Origin: a virus
DNA length: 64,000 bases
Virus record (IMG/VR): IMGVR_UViG_3300043409_001462
Location: 96,001-160,000 of that record
Reading direction: 5' to 3' (one strand)
Shown here: positions 13,305-17,711 of the stretch, in pieces
How the letters are laid out: the number at the start of each line of letters is the position of its first letter
How positions within the stretch are numbered: the first letter of the stretch is position 1
Made by a program: the position numbers and the translations under genes
The notes under the pieces: model-generated
What the model was told of the DNA's origin: nothing
Databases searched by the model: none
Seen by the model: the letters and a program-made list of their open reading frames with translations, nothing else

Positions 13305-13382
13305 CCTCCGTTGGTGTAGCGGTCTAACATACCCGCCTTTCAAGCGCGGAGATCATCGGTTCAAATCCGATACGGAGGACCA
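13305..13382 (+). tRNA. tRNA-Glu(TTC)
   Basis: Loop CTTTCAA; bulged anticodon stem; CCA. Confidence 0.85.
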
Positions 13383-14056: not shown

Positions 14057-14662
14057 ATGCAAAATGAAGTGATAAGTCTTTTCCCAACAGCTGTTATGAA
14101 GTCTACATTGGACAGAAAACTTTCAAGAAAAGAAGTTAATTTTGTAAAGAAGAATTTTAAAAATATTAGAAGCAATTTGCAAAACAGTACTAGTTGTGAT
14201 AATTATATTTTAGAAAACCAAGAATTTGTTTCTTTGAAAGAGTTTATTGAAACACAGTTAGATGTATATTACAGAAAAGTATTAAATGTTGATACAAGCT
14301 CAAAGATCTACATTACACAATCATGGTTGAATTATTCTAAGCCAGGTGAATCACATCATCCACATACACATACTAATAGTTTTTTGAGTGGCGTATTCTA
14401 CATTAGCACAAATGAAAATGATAGAATTTTCTTTAGAAAACAAAAAGAATTTATACATATACCACCAACTGTTTGTAATGTTTGGAATTCTGATTTGTGG
14501 GCATTGTCAGCTGTAGAAGGATATCTTTATATTTTTCCTTCAAACCTTGAGCATTATGTGGAAAAAATAACAGGTAGTAAAACAAGAATTAGTTTGAGTT
14601 TCAATTCATTCATATCTGGAAAAATTGGAGCTCCTGATTTCTTATCAGAATTAAAGATATAA
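14057..14662 (+). CDS. 2OG-Fe(II) oxygenase (TIGR02466-like)
   Basis: LFPT start, SWLN, HxH (HHPHTHTNSFLSGVFY), FPSNLEHYV, RISLSFN. Confidence 0.85.
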   Translation: MQNEVISLFPTAVMKSTLDRKLSRKEVNFVKKNFKNIRSNLQNSTSCDNYILENQEFVSLKEFIETQLDVYYRKVLNVDTSSKIYITQSWLNYSKPGESHHPHTHTNSFLSGVFYISTNENDRIFFRKQKEFIHIPPTVCNVWNSDLWALSAVEGYLYIFPSNLEHYVEKITGSKTRISLSFNSFISGKIGAPDFLSELKI

Positions 14663-14994: not shown

Positions 14995-15591
14995 ATGATT
15001 AGCAAACATTTATTGAATGAATTGAATTATATTGTAATTGATAGTGGTGTAAAGATGGAAGGTAATTTGTTTTACTACCATCAGACGACACCATCTGATA
15101 ATCTTTACGAACCTTTCGAAAAGAAACGTCAGAACCTACAGCTATTGGCTAAGAAGTTTGATAACATTATGGAGATCGGTTTCAATGCTGGCCATAGTGC
15201 TGCTTTGATGCTCGAAGCCAATCCTAATCTGTTCTTGGTTAGCATCGATATTGGTGAACATAGCTATGTTTCTTCATGCGGAAAGGCTATTCAATCTGCT
15301 TTCCCTGGAAGGCACCAGCTTATCATCAAGGATTCGAAGCTTATCACTCAGAAAGAAATTAGCTTCGCTCAAGCTGTCATCGTTGATGGTGGTCATGAAT
15401 TTGATGATTGCTCTGCAGACTTGGAGTTGTGTAAAACGTACTGCGCGCCAGGAACAGTTATCGTTATCGACGATATTGATTTGAATGGAGTGCAGCTTGC
15501 GTATAGGCATCACTCTAGAAGTTTGTCAGTATGGAAAGATATTGAAACAATATATAACCAAGCTTTCTTCACATTAAACTCGCCCGAGTAG
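14995..15591 (+). CDS. Class I SAM-dependent methyltransferase (Methyltransf_24-like)
   Basis: MEIGFNAGHS, SIDI, VDGGH, VIDD. Confidence 0.85.
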   Translation: MISKHLLNELNYIVIDSGVKMEGNLFYYHQTTPSDNLYEPFEKKRQNLQLLAKKFDNIMEIGFNAGHSAALMLEANPNLFLVSIDIGEHSYVSSCGKAIQSAFPGRHQLIIKDSKLITQKEISFAQAVIVDGGHEFDDCSADLELCKTYCAPGTVIVIDDIDLNGVQLAYRHHSRSLSVWKDIETIYNQAFFTLNSPE

Positions 15592-15658
15592 TCCAATTGG
15601 CAGAGGCGCTGGTCTTAGAAACCAGATGTTGGGGGTTCAAATCCCTCCTCGGGCACCA
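15582..15658 (+). tRNA. tRNA-Leu(TAG), short variable loop
   Basis: Loop CTTAGAA; CCA; overlaps the upstream stop codon. Confidence 0.88.
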
Positions 15659-15662
15659 TTTT

Positions 15663-16263
15663 AGGTTGTGTTCAGCATACAATGGATGAACCAGTCGGTC
15701 GGGTGTTCGAGTCACCCCAGGAGCTCCTTGCTTCTGTAGCTCAGTGGTAGAGCAACTGCCAAAAAGTACAACCTGTTGAAAATAGTGCTTGACTTATCCG
15801 TAGATAAAGCGTATTATATGTGTATTGAGTTTGAGATTGACCGTTCAGCAAACAGCTTTTGATCAAGCTAGTAGCCCCTGGGCTACGTATAGACTGGCTT
15901 TATACCTGGTCTCCAGTGGTTGTTTCTTCGGGCGTCCACTATAAAAAAATGAAATAAGAAGTCAATCTGTTGAGTTTTAGGAAGCATTCGGCAAACAATT
16001 ATTGATTGGTTCAACTCCAATACCAGCGGTTCACGCTAGTACGCCTCGTGTGGGGCAACTGCTTCCTGTTGAGTTCTAGGATTGTTACAGCATAAATGCA
16101 CTTGATTTGTAATCAAACCCGCAAAGGGCAATCCTGTTGAGTTTTAGGGTCAGTTCCGCATCTAAAATGATTGCATATATCAAACCAAGATGACCCTGTT
16201 GAGTTTAGATTCAGTTCCGCAACCAATCAAATCGACTTGAAATCGACCAAAGTGAATCTGTCG
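15663..16263 (+). ncRNA. Array of six Y-RNA-like/tRNA-mimic cassettes upstream of Ro60-like gene
   Basis: Units start at 15663, 15834, 15979, 16078, 16146 and 16207; each is AG-stem + T(T/A)CNGCA + variable cargo + complementary stem-CT + GTTGA(G) (GTCG in unit 6). Confidence 0.85.
15789..15817 (+). promoter_or_regulatory. Sigma70-like promoter inside the RNA array (would drive units 2-6 and the DUF2828 gene)
   Basis: TTGACT-N17-TATTAT. Confidence 0.75.
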
Positions 16264-16280
16264 TAAAATGGAGAAGTGAA

Positions 16281-17711
16281 ATGAATACCTTTGTAAATGC
16301 CGTTGTTAATCAGGAAGCTCGTACCGAAAATGGTATGAAGGCTCGCCAGTCTACTGCTAATGCATTGACTGATCTGTTCTTCAAGATCGGTGCTATGCGT
16401 GGTCAGAATGTAATTCCTGCTTGGACTGCTGCTCGTGCTCATGATACTTTGCTTGCATCTCGTATCGCTCTTTGGGCACGTGATGTTCGTGGTGGTGCTG
16501 GTGAACGTAAAATCTTCCGTGACATTTTAGTTGATCTTGCTTCAGCTGATCCTCATCGTGGTGTGGCTCTTGGTCGTAAGATTCCAGAGCTTGGTCGTTG
16601 GGATGACTTCCTTGTGTTCGTTGGTACCCCTCTTGAGGAGTATGCGTTCGAAACTATCCGCGAAGCTCTCGAAGCTGGTAATGGTCTCTGTGCAAAGTGG
16701 ATGCCTCGTCAAGGTGAAACAGCTGTAAAGCTTCGTAAGTACCTTGGTTGGACTCCTAAGTTCTACCGAAAGCGTCTGGTTGAATTGACCAAGGTTGTCG
16801 AAACTCAGATGTGCGCTAAGGACTGGGATAACATCAACTTCAACCATGTTCCTTCGGTTGCTTCTTCTCGTTACAAGAAGGCATTCGCTCGTCATACTGA
16901 CAAGTACAAGGAATGGACTGCGGCTCTTGTTTCTACTGATCCAGAGGTGGCTAAGTCTGTTAAGGTCAATGCTGGTGCGGTTTATCCTTACGATGTGTTG
17001 AAGGGTGTGATTAATCATTATGGGCGTTATGATCAATCTAACTTGAATCATATCCTTGCTCAGTGGGAAGCTTTGCCTAACTTCGTTGGTAATGCTAACA
17101 TTCTTCCGCTTGTTGACGTTTCTGGTTCAATGACTTCGAAGGCTGGTGGTTATCAGTCAAAGTCAGAAGTAACCTGCCTTGATGTTGCAGTTTCTCTTGG
17201 TCTGTATCTCGCAGACAAAAACAAGGGTAAGTTCAAGGATACTTTCTTGACCTTCTCTAGCGATCCTCAGCTGCTTCATCTTCGCGGTAACATCCTCGAT
17301 AAGGTAAAGCAGATGGTATCTTCAAAGTGGGAAATGAACACCAATTTGCATCGTGCGTTGGATAAGATCCTTCGCACCGCGATTGAAGGTAACGTTCCTC
17401 AGTCAGAAATGCCAGGTGCATTGTTGATCCTTTCTGATATGCAGTTTGATTCTTGCACTCGTCACGATGACTCTGCTATGGAAATGATTAAGCGTAAGTA
17501 TGTTGATGCTGGTTACAATGTACCTAACATTGTGTTCTGGAATCTCAATGCTCACGACAATGTTCCTGTCAAGTATGACACTCGTGGTGCTGCTCTTGTT
17601 TCTGGTTTCTCACCTTCTATCGTTAAGGCTGTTCTGCAGGCTGAGATGGATAACTTTACGCCAGAAGCTATCATGATGCAAACCATTATGAACCCACGAT
17701 ATGACTACTAA
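16281..17711 (+). CDS. DUF2828-family helical + vWA protein (Ro60/TROVE-like RNA-binding protein)
   Basis: RTENG, RDVRGGAGER, GRWDD, AKWMPR, VPSVAS, MIDAS DVSGSM, NTNL, ILSDMQFD, FWNL, VSGFSP. Confidence 0.85.
   Translation: MNTFVNAVVNQEARTENGMKARQSTANALTDLFFKIGAMRGQNVIPAWTAARAHDTLLASRIALWARDVRGGAGERKIFRDILVDLASADPHRGVALGRKIPELGRWDDFLVFVGTPLEEYAFETIREALEAGNGLCAKWMPRQGETAVKLRKYLGWTPKFYRKRLVELTKVVETQMCAKDWDNINFNHVPSVASSRYKKAFARHTDKYKEWTAALVSTDPEVAKSVKVNAGAVYPYDVLKGVINHYGRYDQSNLNHILAQWEALPNFVGNANILPLVDVSGSMTSKAGGYQSKSEVTCLDVAVSLGLYLADKNKGKFKDTFLTFSSDPQLLHLRGNILDKVKQMVSSKWEMNTNLHRALDKILRTAIEGNVPQSEMPGALLILSDMQFDSCTRHDDSAMEMIKRKYVDAGYNVPNIVFWNLNAHDNVPVKYDTRGAALVSGFSPSIVKAVLQAEMDNFTPEAIMMQTIMNPRYDY

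What the first reader, a model, noticed from the sequence alone, without database searches (positions are those of the whole stretch)
15691..16058. Circularly permuted tRNA elbows (T arm, capped acceptor, D arm) in array units 1 and 3
Unit 1 reads CAGT-CGGTC, T arm GGGTG-TTCGAGT-CACCC, acceptor hairpin CAGGAGC-TCCTT-GCTTCTG, TA, D arm GCTC-AGTGGTA-GAGC, A, ACTG. That is a tRNA opened at the anticodon loop with the acceptor end sealed by a loop. Unit 3 repeats the order: ATTGG-TTCAACT-CCAAT, ACCAGCG-GTTCA-CGCTAGT, AC, GCCTC-GTGT-GGGGC. This T-before-D order is the known YrlA topology and is the best independent link between the array and Ro60 biology. These RNAs have no anticodon or CCA end and so cannot decode.
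Basis: partly seen in the sequence, partly recalled or inferred. Interest (0 to 1): 0.85.

Follow-up and report, generated by a model that had tools for sequence, protein, structure and literature searches.

The report
Phage Y-like RNAs with rearranged tRNA bodies
Two of six small RNA genes in front of a phage gene for a Ro60-shaped protein carry a tRNA body with its ends moved to the anticodon side; one is a complete tRNA mimic and the other a stripped-down one, and they belong to a large phage RNA family that I could not find described in the literature searched.

Summary
Unit 1 (15662-15782) reads handle, 4-bp anticodon-stem stand-in, T arm, 7-bp loop-capped acceptor helix, U8-A9, D arm, handle. 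Rfam YrlA matches it at 39.1 bits, below the family cut-off of 69; tandem-tRNA junctions in the same genome reach at most 21.5 bits. In 21 homologues beside the same gene in related phage contigs, 26 of 28 pairs show changes on both sides. The tertiary 15:48 pair covaries, and nearly all invariant tRNA positions are kept, so a true tRNA-like L shape is very likely.

Unit 3 (15978-16075) keeps a canonical T arm and a covarying capped acceptor helix. Its D-position hairpin (GCCUC-GUGU-GGGGC) has lost U8, A14, the G18-G19 pair and A21, so a D-loop/T-loop "elbow" is not supported there.

The downstream protein (Pfam DUF2828/DUF7788, no TROVE hit) is predicted to fold like Ro60 (Z 17.2 to Thermus phage phiLo Ro60). 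The RNAs lack the GNCGAA Rsr motif and share a different handle (AG-helix, UUCNGCA, CUGU). I read this as a new variant of the YrlA kind: a tRNA body displayed on a Ro-like-protein handle, probably as bait or an adaptor for tRNA-binding proteins.

This scan has already noted the same RNA family many times on other DNA and on neighbouring units of this array.

The parts
15662..15782 (+). Unit 1: a complete Y-like RNA gene made of a handle plus a circularly permuted tRNA body.
   Evidence: Rfam YrlA 39.1 bits over model positions 1-114. CM R1 finds homologues at 38-155 bits in about 25 related contigs. 26 of 28 pairs show changes on both sides.
15663..15677 (+). Unit 1 handle, 5' side. AGGTTGTG (15663-15670) pairs with TACAACCT (15767-15774). 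It is followed by the conserved unpaired TTCAGCA (15671-15677).
   Evidence: The handle helix differs in sequence but stays complementary in all six units. 7 of its 8 pairs covary in A4.
15692..15700 (+). CAGT is the stand-in for the anticodon-stem 3' strand and pairs with ACTG at 15755-15758. It is followed by the variable loop CGGTC, which ends in C48.
   Evidence: All 4 pairs of helix 2 show changes on both sides. C48 pairs with G15, and this pair covaries: CG 14, UA 3, AU 2, UG 1.
15701..15717 (+). Unit 1 T arm, GGGTG-TTCGAGT-CACCC.
   Evidence: G53, U54, U55, C56, A58 and C61 are kept in 21 of 21 homologues. 4 of 5 stem pairs covary.
15718..15736 (+). Unit 1 acceptor helix closed by a loop, CAGGAGC-TCCTT-GCTTCTG.
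   Evidence: All 7 pairs show changes on both sides, and 97.9% of cells are paired.
15737..15758 (+). U8-A9, then D arm GCTC-AGTGGTA-GAGC (15739-15753), then A26, then ACTG.
   Evidence: U8 in 20 of 21, A14 in 20 of 21, GG in the D loop in 20 of 21 homologues.
15767..15782 (+). Unit 1 handle, 3' side: TACAACCT followed by the GTTGA tail.
   Evidence: The CTGTTGA repeat follows every unit.
15978..16075 (+). Unit 3: a complete Y-like RNA gene made of a handle plus a reduced permuted tRNA body.
   Evidence: CM R1, built from unit-1 sequences only, aligns it end to end at 31.2 bits; handle-only units score 20-27 bits. CM R2 finds 12 distinct relatives, with 20 of 24 pairs showing changes on both sides.
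16005..16021 (+). Unit 3 T arm, ATTGG-TTCAACT-CCAAT.
   Evidence: The loop fits UUCRANY. It is the minimum-energy fold and is conserved in the class.
16022..16040 (+). Unit 3 capped acceptor helix, ACCAGCG-GTTCA-CGCTAGT, with one C.A mismatch.
   Evidence: All 7 pairs covary across the class. Examples: ATTTTCC/GGAAAGT and ATTCGTCA/TGACGAGT.
16043..16056 (+). Unit 3 hairpin at the D position, GCCTC-GTGT-GGGGC. It has no canonical D loop.
   Evidence: A U.G to U-A change in L002 supports the 4th pair. Sister units have GG-containing loops (AAGGU, UUGGUA, CGUGGUG, AAUGGUA), whereas this clade has CGUGUG.
15834..15976 (+). Unit 2 (context): same handle, four-hairpin cargo, no tRNA-like part.
   Evidence: Unit parser.
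16077..16267 (+). Units 4-6 (context): same handle with short hairpin cargos.
   Evidence: They were covered by an earlier follow-up, e1-5645200.
15789..15817 (+). Sigma-70-like promoter TTGACT-17-TATTAT between units 1 and 2.
   Evidence: The GTGCTTGACTT motif recurs after unit 1 in L001-L003.
15582..15658 (+). tRNA-Leu(UAG) with an encoded CCA, ending 4 nt before unit 1.
16281..17711 (+). Gene for a 476-aa DUF2828/DUF7788 protein with a predicted Ro60 fold (HEAT ring plus vWA). It is the presumed partner of the handle.
   Evidence: Pfam. PHROG 850 'RNA-binding protein'. AF2 pLDDT 73. The top 10 structural matches are all Ro60, with Z 11.3-17.2 over 380-408 residues.

Best explanation
Units 1 and 3 are two of six tandem genes for Y-RNA-like small RNAs.

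Each RNA has a common 'handle': a terminal helix beginning AG and ending CU, an unpaired UUCNGCA next to the 5' strand, and a GU(UGA) 3' tail. I infer that the handle is bound by the Ro60-fold protein encoded just downstream.

The variable cargo of units 1 and 3 is a circularly permuted tRNA body. The handle enters where the anticodon arm would be, the T arm stacks on an acceptor helix sealed by a loop, and the D arm follows.

Unit 1 keeps every nucleotide needed for the tRNA L shape, including the D-loop/T-loop contact, so it should fold as a true tRNA mimic. Unit 3 keeps only the T-arm/acceptor minihelix plus a short stable hairpin at the D position.

Inferred function: the tRNA-shaped part is a protein-recognition module. 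It either brings tRNA-recognising proteins to the Ro-like ring or sequesters them during infection. Candidates are modification enzymes, RNase P, exonucleases, or host nucleases that attack tRNA.

Shown here: the anatomy, its conservation and covariation, and its adjacency to and shared strand with a gene whose product is predicted to fold like Ro60. Inferred: transcription and processing, protein binding, and the identity of the tRNA-binding partner.
For: - Rfam YrlA aligns unit 1 end to end at 39.1 bits.
- In alignment A4 (21 homologues), 95.7% of cells are paired against 35-49% when the partners are slid. 26 of 28 pairs show changes on both sides.
- The Levitt pair 15:48 covaries.
- U8, A14, G18G19, G53, U54, U55, C56, A58 and C61 are kept in 20-21 of 21 homologues.
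- In the unit-3 class alignment A8, 95.6% of cells are paired and 20 of 24 pairs show changes on both sides.
- All 96 R1 matches in 80 related loci lie on the strand of the DUF2828 gene, and all end-to-end matches lie upstream of it.
- Units of both types sit in the same array in the window and in L001, L002, L006, L012 and L022.
- The same handle plus permuted tRNA body sits beside the 31%-identical 'Ro-like' gene of Mycobacterium phage Breezona, and beside the gene in Cronobacter phage S13.
- The protein's top 10 structural matches are all Ro60, with Z 11.3-17.2 over 380-408 residues.
- Established background: YrlA RNAs carry this permuted tRNA-like domain, lie within 4 kb of Ro60 on the same strand, and are substrates of TruB, DusA and RNase P (PMC4201824). 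A phage Ro60 binds two upstream Y-like RNAs and host PNPase (PMC12135203).
Against: - No expression, RNA-end or binding data exist for this uncultured phage.
- The Rfam score is below the gathering cut-off, and the GNCGAA motif that marks Rsr binding is absent.
- The protein shows no sequence-level match to TROVE or to any solved Ro60. The Ro60 link rests on a medium-confidence model (pLDDT 73).
- Unit 3 lacks the D-loop determinants, so the module does not need a complete elbow.
- No RtcB, CCA-adding enzyme or Rnl2-type ligase is found in this genome that could point to a partner.
- Alignments A4 and A8 were fitted to the model, which favours the structure. The slid-partner controls reduce this concern but do not remove it.
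Confidence: 0.72

Rival explanations
1. The tRNA-like fold serves only as a nuclease-resistant, stable core, or as a processing signal that lets RNase P or RNase Z cut the array into units. It has no role in recognising partners.
For: Chen et al. 2014 raise protection from nucleases as one possibility for YrlA. Unit 1 directly follows a tRNA gene and probably shares its transcript. Units 2 and 4-6 work with other compact cargos.
Against: Four of the six units lack a tRNA-like part yet share the same boundaries, so processing cannot depend on it. Conservation reaches positions that matter for tRNA tertiary shape and enzyme recognition, not just stem stability. Related arrays carry many different tRNA parts, including anticodon-like loops, which suggests that the cargo identity matters.
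Confidence: 0.12
2. Unit 1 is a precursor. RNase P cuts the cap loop 5' of GCUUCUG, and the new 3' end is trimmed and receives CCA. The result is a nicked, possibly aminoacylatable tRNA-like molecule, as reported for M. smegmatis YrlA.
For: [quoted passage not shown] The unit 1 cap loop reads U-C-C-U-U directly after the 7-bp helix, like N73-C74-C75. Cronobacter phage S13 has sister RNAs in normal tRNA order with encoded ACCA/GCCA ends, and a permuted unit whose cap loop contains G-ACCA.
Against: Cap loops are not conserved among unit-1 homologues: TCCTT, TCTTT, CAAAA, TTCAT, AGT, TGAT and others, 3-6 nt long. Chen et al. saw no such cleavage in Salmonella or Deinococcus. There is no anticodon, so no decoding either way. 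The genome encodes no CCA-adding enzyme, although the host will have one.
Confidence: 0.1
3. The units are decayed remains of tandem tRNA genes in the phage tRNA island (3' half of one tRNA followed by the 5' half of the next) and have no function of their own.
For: The array lies inside a cluster of 25 tRNA genes. Tandem tRNAs are a known source of false YrlA hits. The YrlA model does hit tRNA junctions in this genome.
Against: Junction hits score at most 21.5 bits, against 39.1 for unit 1. The two acceptor strands are complementary and covary together across relatives. The units are framed by the conserved handle. No resident tRNA is a close paralogue beyond the generic D arm.
Confidence: 0.03

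Closest known systems
YrlA (Rfam RF02553), the tRNA-like Y RNA bound by bacterial and mycobacteriophage Ro60/Rsr (Chen et al. 2014, PMC4201824)
   Same: - The order is V loop, T arm, capped acceptor-like stem-loop, D arm, closed by a stem formed from the 5' and 3' ends.
- The tRNA tertiary positions are conserved and the 15:48 pair covaries.
- The RNA is encoded next to, and on the same strand as, a Ro60-fold gene.
- More than one Y-like RNA lies at the locus.
   Different: - The Rfam score is 39 bits against a cut-off of 69.
- There is no GNCGAA(N)G motif. The handle is instead AG-helix, UUCNGCA and CUGU.
- The partner is DUF2828/DUF7788, not Pfam TROVE.
- Six units lie in tandem with interchangeable cargos.
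- Unit 3 has a reduced D arm, which is not described for YrlA.
Thermus phage phiLo Ro60 with Yrl1 and Yrl2 (NAR 2025, PMC12135203; PDB 9KOP, 9L5Y)
   Same: It is a phage-encoded Ro60-fold protein with Y-like RNA genes just upstream. It is the best structural match to the protein model (Z 17.2, 399 residues aligned, 17% identity).
   Different: The phiLo RNAs were found through a CGAA motif and are stem-bulge-stem RNAs. No tRNA-like domain is mentioned in that paper. There are two RNAs rather than six.
Dictyostelid Class I RNAs (Kjellin et al. 2021, PMC7919456)
   Same: Both have a short terminal stem that covaries, a start AAG/UAG with a conserved G, an end CUGU whose C pairs with that G, a conserved motif of about 11 nt next to the 5' strand, and a variable remainder. 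This parallels the handle here.
   Different: Class I RNAs are eukaryotic and 42-65 nt long, and no tRNA-like cargo is reported for them. I could not read the 11-nt motif sequence from the text. My recollection that it contains ACAGCA is from memory only, so homology is untested.
Circularly permuted tRNA genes of red and green algae (e.g. Cyanidioschyzon merolae); from my own knowledge, not looked up here
   Same: The 3' half of the tRNA lies upstream of the 5' half in the gene, and the acceptor strands are joined by a short linker.
   Different: The algal genes mature through a circular intermediate into ordinary decoding tRNAs with an anticodon and CCA. Here there is no anticodon loop and no CCA, and a conserved protein-binding handle sits at the break.
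tmRNA and other tRNA mimics (viral TLS, mascRNA); from general knowledge
   Same: They use a T arm plus acceptor helix to engage tRNA-recognising enzymes.
   Different: Those mimics have an open acceptor end that is processed or aminoacylated. In units 1 and 3 the acceptor end is sealed by a loop.

Membership tests
YrlA (Rfam RF02553; Chen et al. 2014) | Score at or above the Rfam gathering cut-off (69 bits). | tested here: not met
   Unit 1 scores 39.1 bits. Unit 3 has no match at E<=10. Related contigs give 20-46 bits and none is over the cut-off.
YrlA (Rfam RF02553; Chen et al. 2014) | Order T arm, acceptor-like stem-loop, D arm, enclosed by a stem formed from the RNA's ends. | tested here: met
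   The Rfam alignment covers model positions 1-114. The minimum-energy folds agree. Covariation is shown. Both units meet this.
YrlA (Rfam RF02553; Chen et al. 2014) | tRNA tertiary-contact nucleotides are kept and the 15:48 Levitt pair shows compensatory change. | tested here: met
   This holds for the unit 1 class only: 15:48 is CG 14, UA 3, AU 2, UG 1, and the invariant positions are kept in 20-21 of 21. Unit 3 does not meet it: A at position 8, C at 14, G:G at 15:48, and no GG dinucleotide.
YrlA (Rfam RF02553; Chen et al. 2014) | GNCGAA(N0-1)G motif near the 5' end, the presumed Rsr-binding site. | tested here: not met
   I read the sequence 15659-16280 and found no GNCGAA in any unit. The conserved 5' motif is TTCNGCA.
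YrlA (Rfam RF02553; Chen et al. 2014) | Encoded within 4 kb of a Ro60 (TROVE) orthologue, on the same strand. | tested here: inconclusive
   Units 1 and 3 end about 500 and 205 nt upstream of the gene, on the same strand. The gene product is DUF2828/DUF7788 with no TROVE hit, yet it has a Ro60-like predicted fold.
YrlA (Rfam RF02553; Chen et al. 2014) | Modified by TruB and DusA, and recognised by RNase P, in vivo. | not testable with these tools
   This needs RNA from infected cells or enzyme assays.
tRNA (Rfam RF00005) | Cloverleaf in standard order, with an anticodon loop and an open acceptor end. | tested here: not met
   Neither unit is called by the Rfam tRNA model or ARAGORN. After rearrangement in a script with a synthetic anticodon arm, ARAGORN calls both as tRNAs. 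That test is nearly blind to the D arm: 154-186 of 200 D-arm shuffles are still called.
Ro60 / TROVE proteins (partner gene) | HEAT-repeat ring followed by a vWA domain. | tested here: met
   In the predicted model, the top 10 matches are all Ro60 (Z 11.3-17.2, rmsd 4.5-5.7 A, 380-408 residues aligned, spanning residues 7-476). The next matches are vWA-only, with Z at most 9.
Ro60 / TROVE proteins (partner gene) | Sequence match to Pfam TROVE (PF05731) or to a solved Ro60. | tested here: not met
   There is no TROVE hit even at E<=10. There is no Ro60 among PDB sequence hits, with either the single sequence or the profile.

The most novel reading that the evidence does not exclude
The array is a modular 'tRNA-part display' system. 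One Ro-like ring protein loads interchangeable RNAs that hold up different pieces of tRNA: a whole L-shaped body (unit 1), a T-arm/acceptor minihelix (unit 3), and anticodon-like arms (other units and relatives). These would act as decoys or baits for host proteins that attack or read tRNA, making the array a phage counter-measure to tRNA-targeting defence. The family would be a second, larger branch of Ro/Y-RNA particles, reaching from mycobacteriophages to T4-like phages and perhaps to the dictyostelid Class I RNAs.
Probability: 0.2. Interest if true: 0.85.

Novelty: new variant of a known kind. Interest (0 to 1): 0.6.

Why it matters
The purpose of the tRNA-like domain in bacterial Y RNAs has been an open question since 2014. 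This phage family offers natural variants on one handle. Arrays here and in relatives carry a full tRNA body, a version without a working D loop, versions in normal tRNA order with CCA ends, and versions with anticodon-like loops.

That gives a ready-made dissection set for asking which tRNA feature recruits which protein. It can be done in cultured phages (Cronobacter S13, mycobacteriophage Breezona, Felix O1-type phages).

It also shows that the very common phage 'DUF2828 / RNA-binding protein' (711 phage records) is probably a Ro60-type protein with its own RNA partners. Current annotation misses these RNAs or labels them as odd tRNAs.

Tried and rejected
- ARAGORN on rearranged sequences. 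It calls both units tRNA once put in standard order with a synthetic anticodon arm. However, shuffling the D arm rarely abolishes the call, so this says nothing about the D arm. I do not count it as support for the unit 3 'elbow'.
- Sequence searches of the protein against Pfam TROVE and the PDB, with the single sequence and with a 33-sequence profile. No Ro60 was found; only the fold comparison shows the relationship.
- Search for a recent tRNA parent among the 25 tRNAs in this window. Only the generic D-arm consensus matches, so no parent was identified.
- Pairing of the conserved UUCAGCA with the 3' UGUUGA. It is complementary on paper, but it crosses the handle helix with no linker. The 3' tail is also not conserved in the mycobacteriophage units, so I dropped it.
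- Search of the own genome for RtcB, a CCA-adding enzyme and an Rnl2-type ligase as candidate partners. None was found.
- Rfam YrlA on eight cultured-phage loci at E<=0.01. There were no YrlA hits, although the clade-specific model R1 finds units in three of them. The Rfam model is too far from this family to serve as a detector.
- MAFFT alignment of the unit-3 class. It misaligned the capped hairpin by one column, so I used the model-based alignment A8 and a script parse instead.
- The supplementary tables of Chen et al. 2014 listing the phages with YrlA are not held. I therefore could not check whether any DUF2828-type phage was already in their set.
Full report
**What is there.** The window is part of a 173-kb uncultured phage genome. 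It holds 25 tRNA genes.

Between tRNA-Leu (15582-15658) and a 476-codon gene (16281-17711) lie six tandem units on the + strand. Each unit begins with AG plus 5-6 variable bases. It ends with the complement of those bases plus CU, so the terminal helix differs in sequence but stays complementary in all six units. A conserved TTCNGCA follows the 5' strand, and GTTGA follows the 3' strand.

The finding concerns the interior of unit 1 (15662-15782) and unit 3 (15978-16075).

Unit 1 reads, in order:
- CAGU and CGGUC
- T arm GGGUG-UUCGAGU-CACCC
- a 7-bp helix CAGGAGC/GCUUCUG closed by UCCUU
- UA
- D arm GCUC-AGUGGUA-GAGC
- A and ACUG

Unit 3 reads AUUGG-UUCAACU-CCAAU, then ACCAGCG-GUUCA-CGCUAGU (one C.A mismatch), AC, and GCCUC-GUGU-GGGGC.

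RNAfold gives exactly these hairpins as the minimum-energy fold of both cores. Energy z-scores are modest (-1.4 to -2.9), as is usual for tRNA-sized RNAs. Neither unit is called a tRNA in native order.

**Unit 1 is a YrlA-type permuted tRNA body.**
- The Rfam YrlA model aligns to 15679-15782 over its whole length at 39.1 bits (E 5e-7 for the stretch searched), matching the T arm, capped stem-loop and D arm in register. This is below the curated cut-off of 69 bits.
- The known false positive for this model is the junction of two tandem tRNAs. In this genome it reaches only 21.5 bits.
- The DUF2828 protein led to 80 related loci in IMG/VR contigs at 61-93% protein identity. Rfam YrlA hits 22 of the first 50 records at 20-46 bits, many close to the gene.
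- A covariance model built from unit 1 and its two nearest homologues (R1) finds end-to-end matches of 38-155 bits in about 25 loci. All 96 matches at E<0.1 lie on the gene's strand, and all end-to-end matches lie upstream of the gene.

In the alignment of 21 such RNAs:

| Measure | Result |
|---|---|
| Cells paired | 95.7% |
| Cells paired when partners are slid | 35-49% |
| Pairs with changes on both sides | 26 of 28 |
| T stem | 4 of 5 pairs covary; G53:C61 never varies, as in tRNA |
| Capped acceptor | 7 of 7 pairs covary |
| D stem | 4 of 4 pairs covary |
| Anticodon-stem stand-in | 4 of 4 pairs covary |
| Handle | 7 of 8 pairs covary |

The tertiary Levitt pair also covaries. The base before the T stem (48) and the second D-loop base (15) read C:G 14 times, U:A 3, A:U 2, U:G 1 and unpaired 1; slid controls give 5-33%. 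U8, A14, the D-loop GG, G53, U54, U55, C56, A58 and C61 are kept in 20-21 of 21 homologues.

This is the pattern Chen et al. used to argue that YrlA folds like tRNA.

**Unit 3 is a reduced version.**
- R1, which contains no unit-3 sequence, aligns unit 3 end to end at 31.2 bits with the T arm, capped helix and D position in register. Handle-only units score 20-27 bits.
- A second model (R2) finds 12 distinct relatives. 95.6% of cells are paired and 20 of 24 pairs show changes on both sides, including all 7 pairs of the capped helix.
- The T arm is canonical.

The D-position hairpin is real. In L002 the U.G pair becomes U-A. It also grades into ordinary D arms in sister units: GCUC-UUGGUA-GAGC in L064, GCCU-AAUGGUA-GGGC in L048 and GCUC-AGCGGUU-GAGC in L051.

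In this phage and its three closest relatives, however, the loop is CGUGUG, or a GUGU tetraloop on a 5-bp stem. That is one G short of the CGUGGUG of L008. Position 8 is A, position 14 is C, 15:48 is G:G and there is no A21. The sequence therefore supports a T-arm/acceptor minihelix with a short hairpin beside it, not a D-loop/T-loop elbow. Rfam YrlA does not detect unit 3.

Units of both types occur in the same array in the window and in L001, L002, L006, L012 and L022. This suggests they are not redundant.

**The partner gene.**
- The protein matches Pfam DUF7788 and DUF2828, and PHROG 850 'RNA-binding protein'. It does not match TROVE, even at E<=10.
- No Ro60 appears in sequence searches of the PDB.
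- An AlphaFold model from 33 homologues (pLDDT 73, pTM 0.68) matches Ro60 structures before anything else. The 13 best Foldseek hits are all Ro60.
- By VIA-align the top 10 are Ro60 with Z 11.3-17.2 over 380-408 aligned residues, covering both ring and vWA domain. The best is Thermus phage phiLo Ro60 (Z 17.2, rmsd 4.5 A, 17% identity). The next hits are vWA domains alone, at Z 9 or less.
- Homologues occur in 711 phage records. Several are annotated 'Ro-like RNA binding protein', and one is annotated from an HHpred match to D. radiodurans Rsr.

The link to Ro60 biology therefore rests on two independent lines: RNA topology and protein fold.

**How far the pairing extends.**
- In Mycobacterium phage Breezona (protein 31% identical), three units with the same handle grammar (GUGG-helix, UAACAGCA, CCAGU) follow the 'Ro-like' gene. 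The middle one is a permuted tRNA body (R1 39.1 bits).
- In Cronobacter phage S13 the gene is followed by one window-type unit and by two RNAs annotated as tRNA-Ser and tRNA-OTHER. These two are in normal tRNA order with encoded ACCA/GCCA ends. Their anticodon arm is replaced by a capped copy of the handle (helix, then AUUCAGCA).
- The S13 RNAs are thus circular permutations of the window's design. This argues that the functional unit is 'tRNA body joined at the anticodon-stem position to the handle', whichever end is open.
- Several unit-1 homologues (L014, L022, L029, L039, L040) also keep an intact 7-nt anticodon-like loop (CUUGUAA, CUGAAAA, CUUAUAA) on a short stem just before the variable loop. 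Window unit 1 has UGG-AUGAA-CCA there instead.

**Mechanism.**

*Shown:* the anatomy, purifying selection on a tRNA-like secondary and tertiary structure, a shared handle, and adjacency on the same strand to a gene whose product is predicted to fold like Ro60.

*Inferred by analogy* with Ro60/Y RNA systems: the protein binds the handle, and the tRNA-shaped cargo engages tRNA-recognising proteins.

The cargos on one handle are diverse. That fits a bait or decoy role better than tethering of a single effector, but I cannot name the partner. The genome encodes no RtcB, CCA-adding enzyme or Rnl2-type ligase. A Listeria phage does have an RtcB-like gene 1.3 kb from its DUF2828 gene.

*Biogenesis, also inferred:* unit 1 starts 4 nt after a tRNA with an encoded CCA and has no promoter of its own, so it is probably released from the tRNA transcript. 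A sigma-70-like promoter (15789-15817) follows unit 1 and could drive units 2-6 and the gene; the same promoter motif follows unit 1 in L001-L003.

**Comparison with what is known.**
- YrlA is the closest family in how it works. Membership fails on three tested points: the Rfam cut-off, the GNCGAA motif and a TROVE partner.
- The phiLo Ro60 paper describes two upstream Y-like RNAs found through a CGAA motif, with no tRNA-like domain mentioned.
- No paper in the library pairs DUF2828 with Y-like RNAs.
- The handle parallels dictyostelid Class I RNAs: a covarying short stem, start AAG, end CUGU, and a conserved motif next to the 5' strand. That lead came from earlier notes of this scan. I confirmed only the published description, not homology.

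**Verdict.** This is a new variant of the YrlA kind, inside an RNA family that appears undescribed in the literature I could search. This scan has already recorded it on many other genomes and on neighbouring units of this array.

Noticed in passing
L091:4396-4640 (Cronobacter phage S13): Two RNAs annotated tRNA-Ser (121 nt) and tRNA-OTHER (113 nt) are tRNA bodies in normal order with encoded ACCA/GCCA ends. Their anticodon arm is replaced by a capped copy of the handle (helix, then AUUCAGCA). They are circular permutations of the window's unit 1 design.
   Followed up: partly
L094:3972-4240 (Mycobacterium phage Breezona): A three-unit array with the same handle grammar (GUGG-helix, UAACAGCA, CCAGU) lies directly downstream of the 'Ro-like RNA binding protein' gene and ends in a terminator-like hairpin with a U run. 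The middle unit is a permuted tRNA body.
   Followed up: partly
L014:522-643, L029:2296-2419, L022:1409-1534, L040:2361-2485, L039:2359-2483: Unit-1 homologues keep a 7-nt anticodon-like loop (CUUGUAA, CUGAAAA, CUUAUAA) on a 3-4 bp stem before the variable loop. These RNAs therefore show all four tRNA arms, with the handle branching from the anticodon stem.
   Followed up: partly
L002:2173-2271, L004:2323-2422, L019:888-1009, L016:1452-1562: Other units in related arrays carry a tRNA body in normal order (D arm, anticodon arm, T arm), with the handle taking the place of the acceptor stem. One has a CUUUUAA (Lys-like) loop.
   Followed up: no
window 15725-15729: The unit 1 cap loop reads U-C-C-U-U directly after the 7-bp acceptor helix, like a discriminator base plus CC. 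This is not conserved in homologues.
   Followed up: partly
window 13305-13382: A tRNA with anticodon UCA. ARAGORN labels it SeC, and the Rfam tRNA model gives 54 bits. It could be an opal suppressor.
   Followed up: no
window 14057-14662 and 14995-15591: A 2OG-Fe(II) oxygenase gene and a class I methyltransferase gene (Pfam Methyltransf_24) sit between blocks of tRNA genes, just upstream of the array.
   Followed up: no
L095:5352-6503 (Listeria phage LP-048): An RtcB-like 'tRNA splicing ligase' gene lies about 1.3 kb downstream of the DUF2828 gene, echoing the bacterial rsr-yrlA-rtcB linkage.
   Followed up: no
L012:1364-1461 versus L012:1868-1992: In this relative the unit-3-type RNA lies upstream of the unit-1-type RNA, the reverse of the window's order. 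Units are therefore shuffled between arrays.
   Followed up: no
window 15663-16267 (all six handles): The handle (start UAG/AAG, covarying short stem, conserved motif after the 5' strand, end CUGU) matches the published description of dictyostelid Class I RNAs (PMC7919456).
   Followed up: partly
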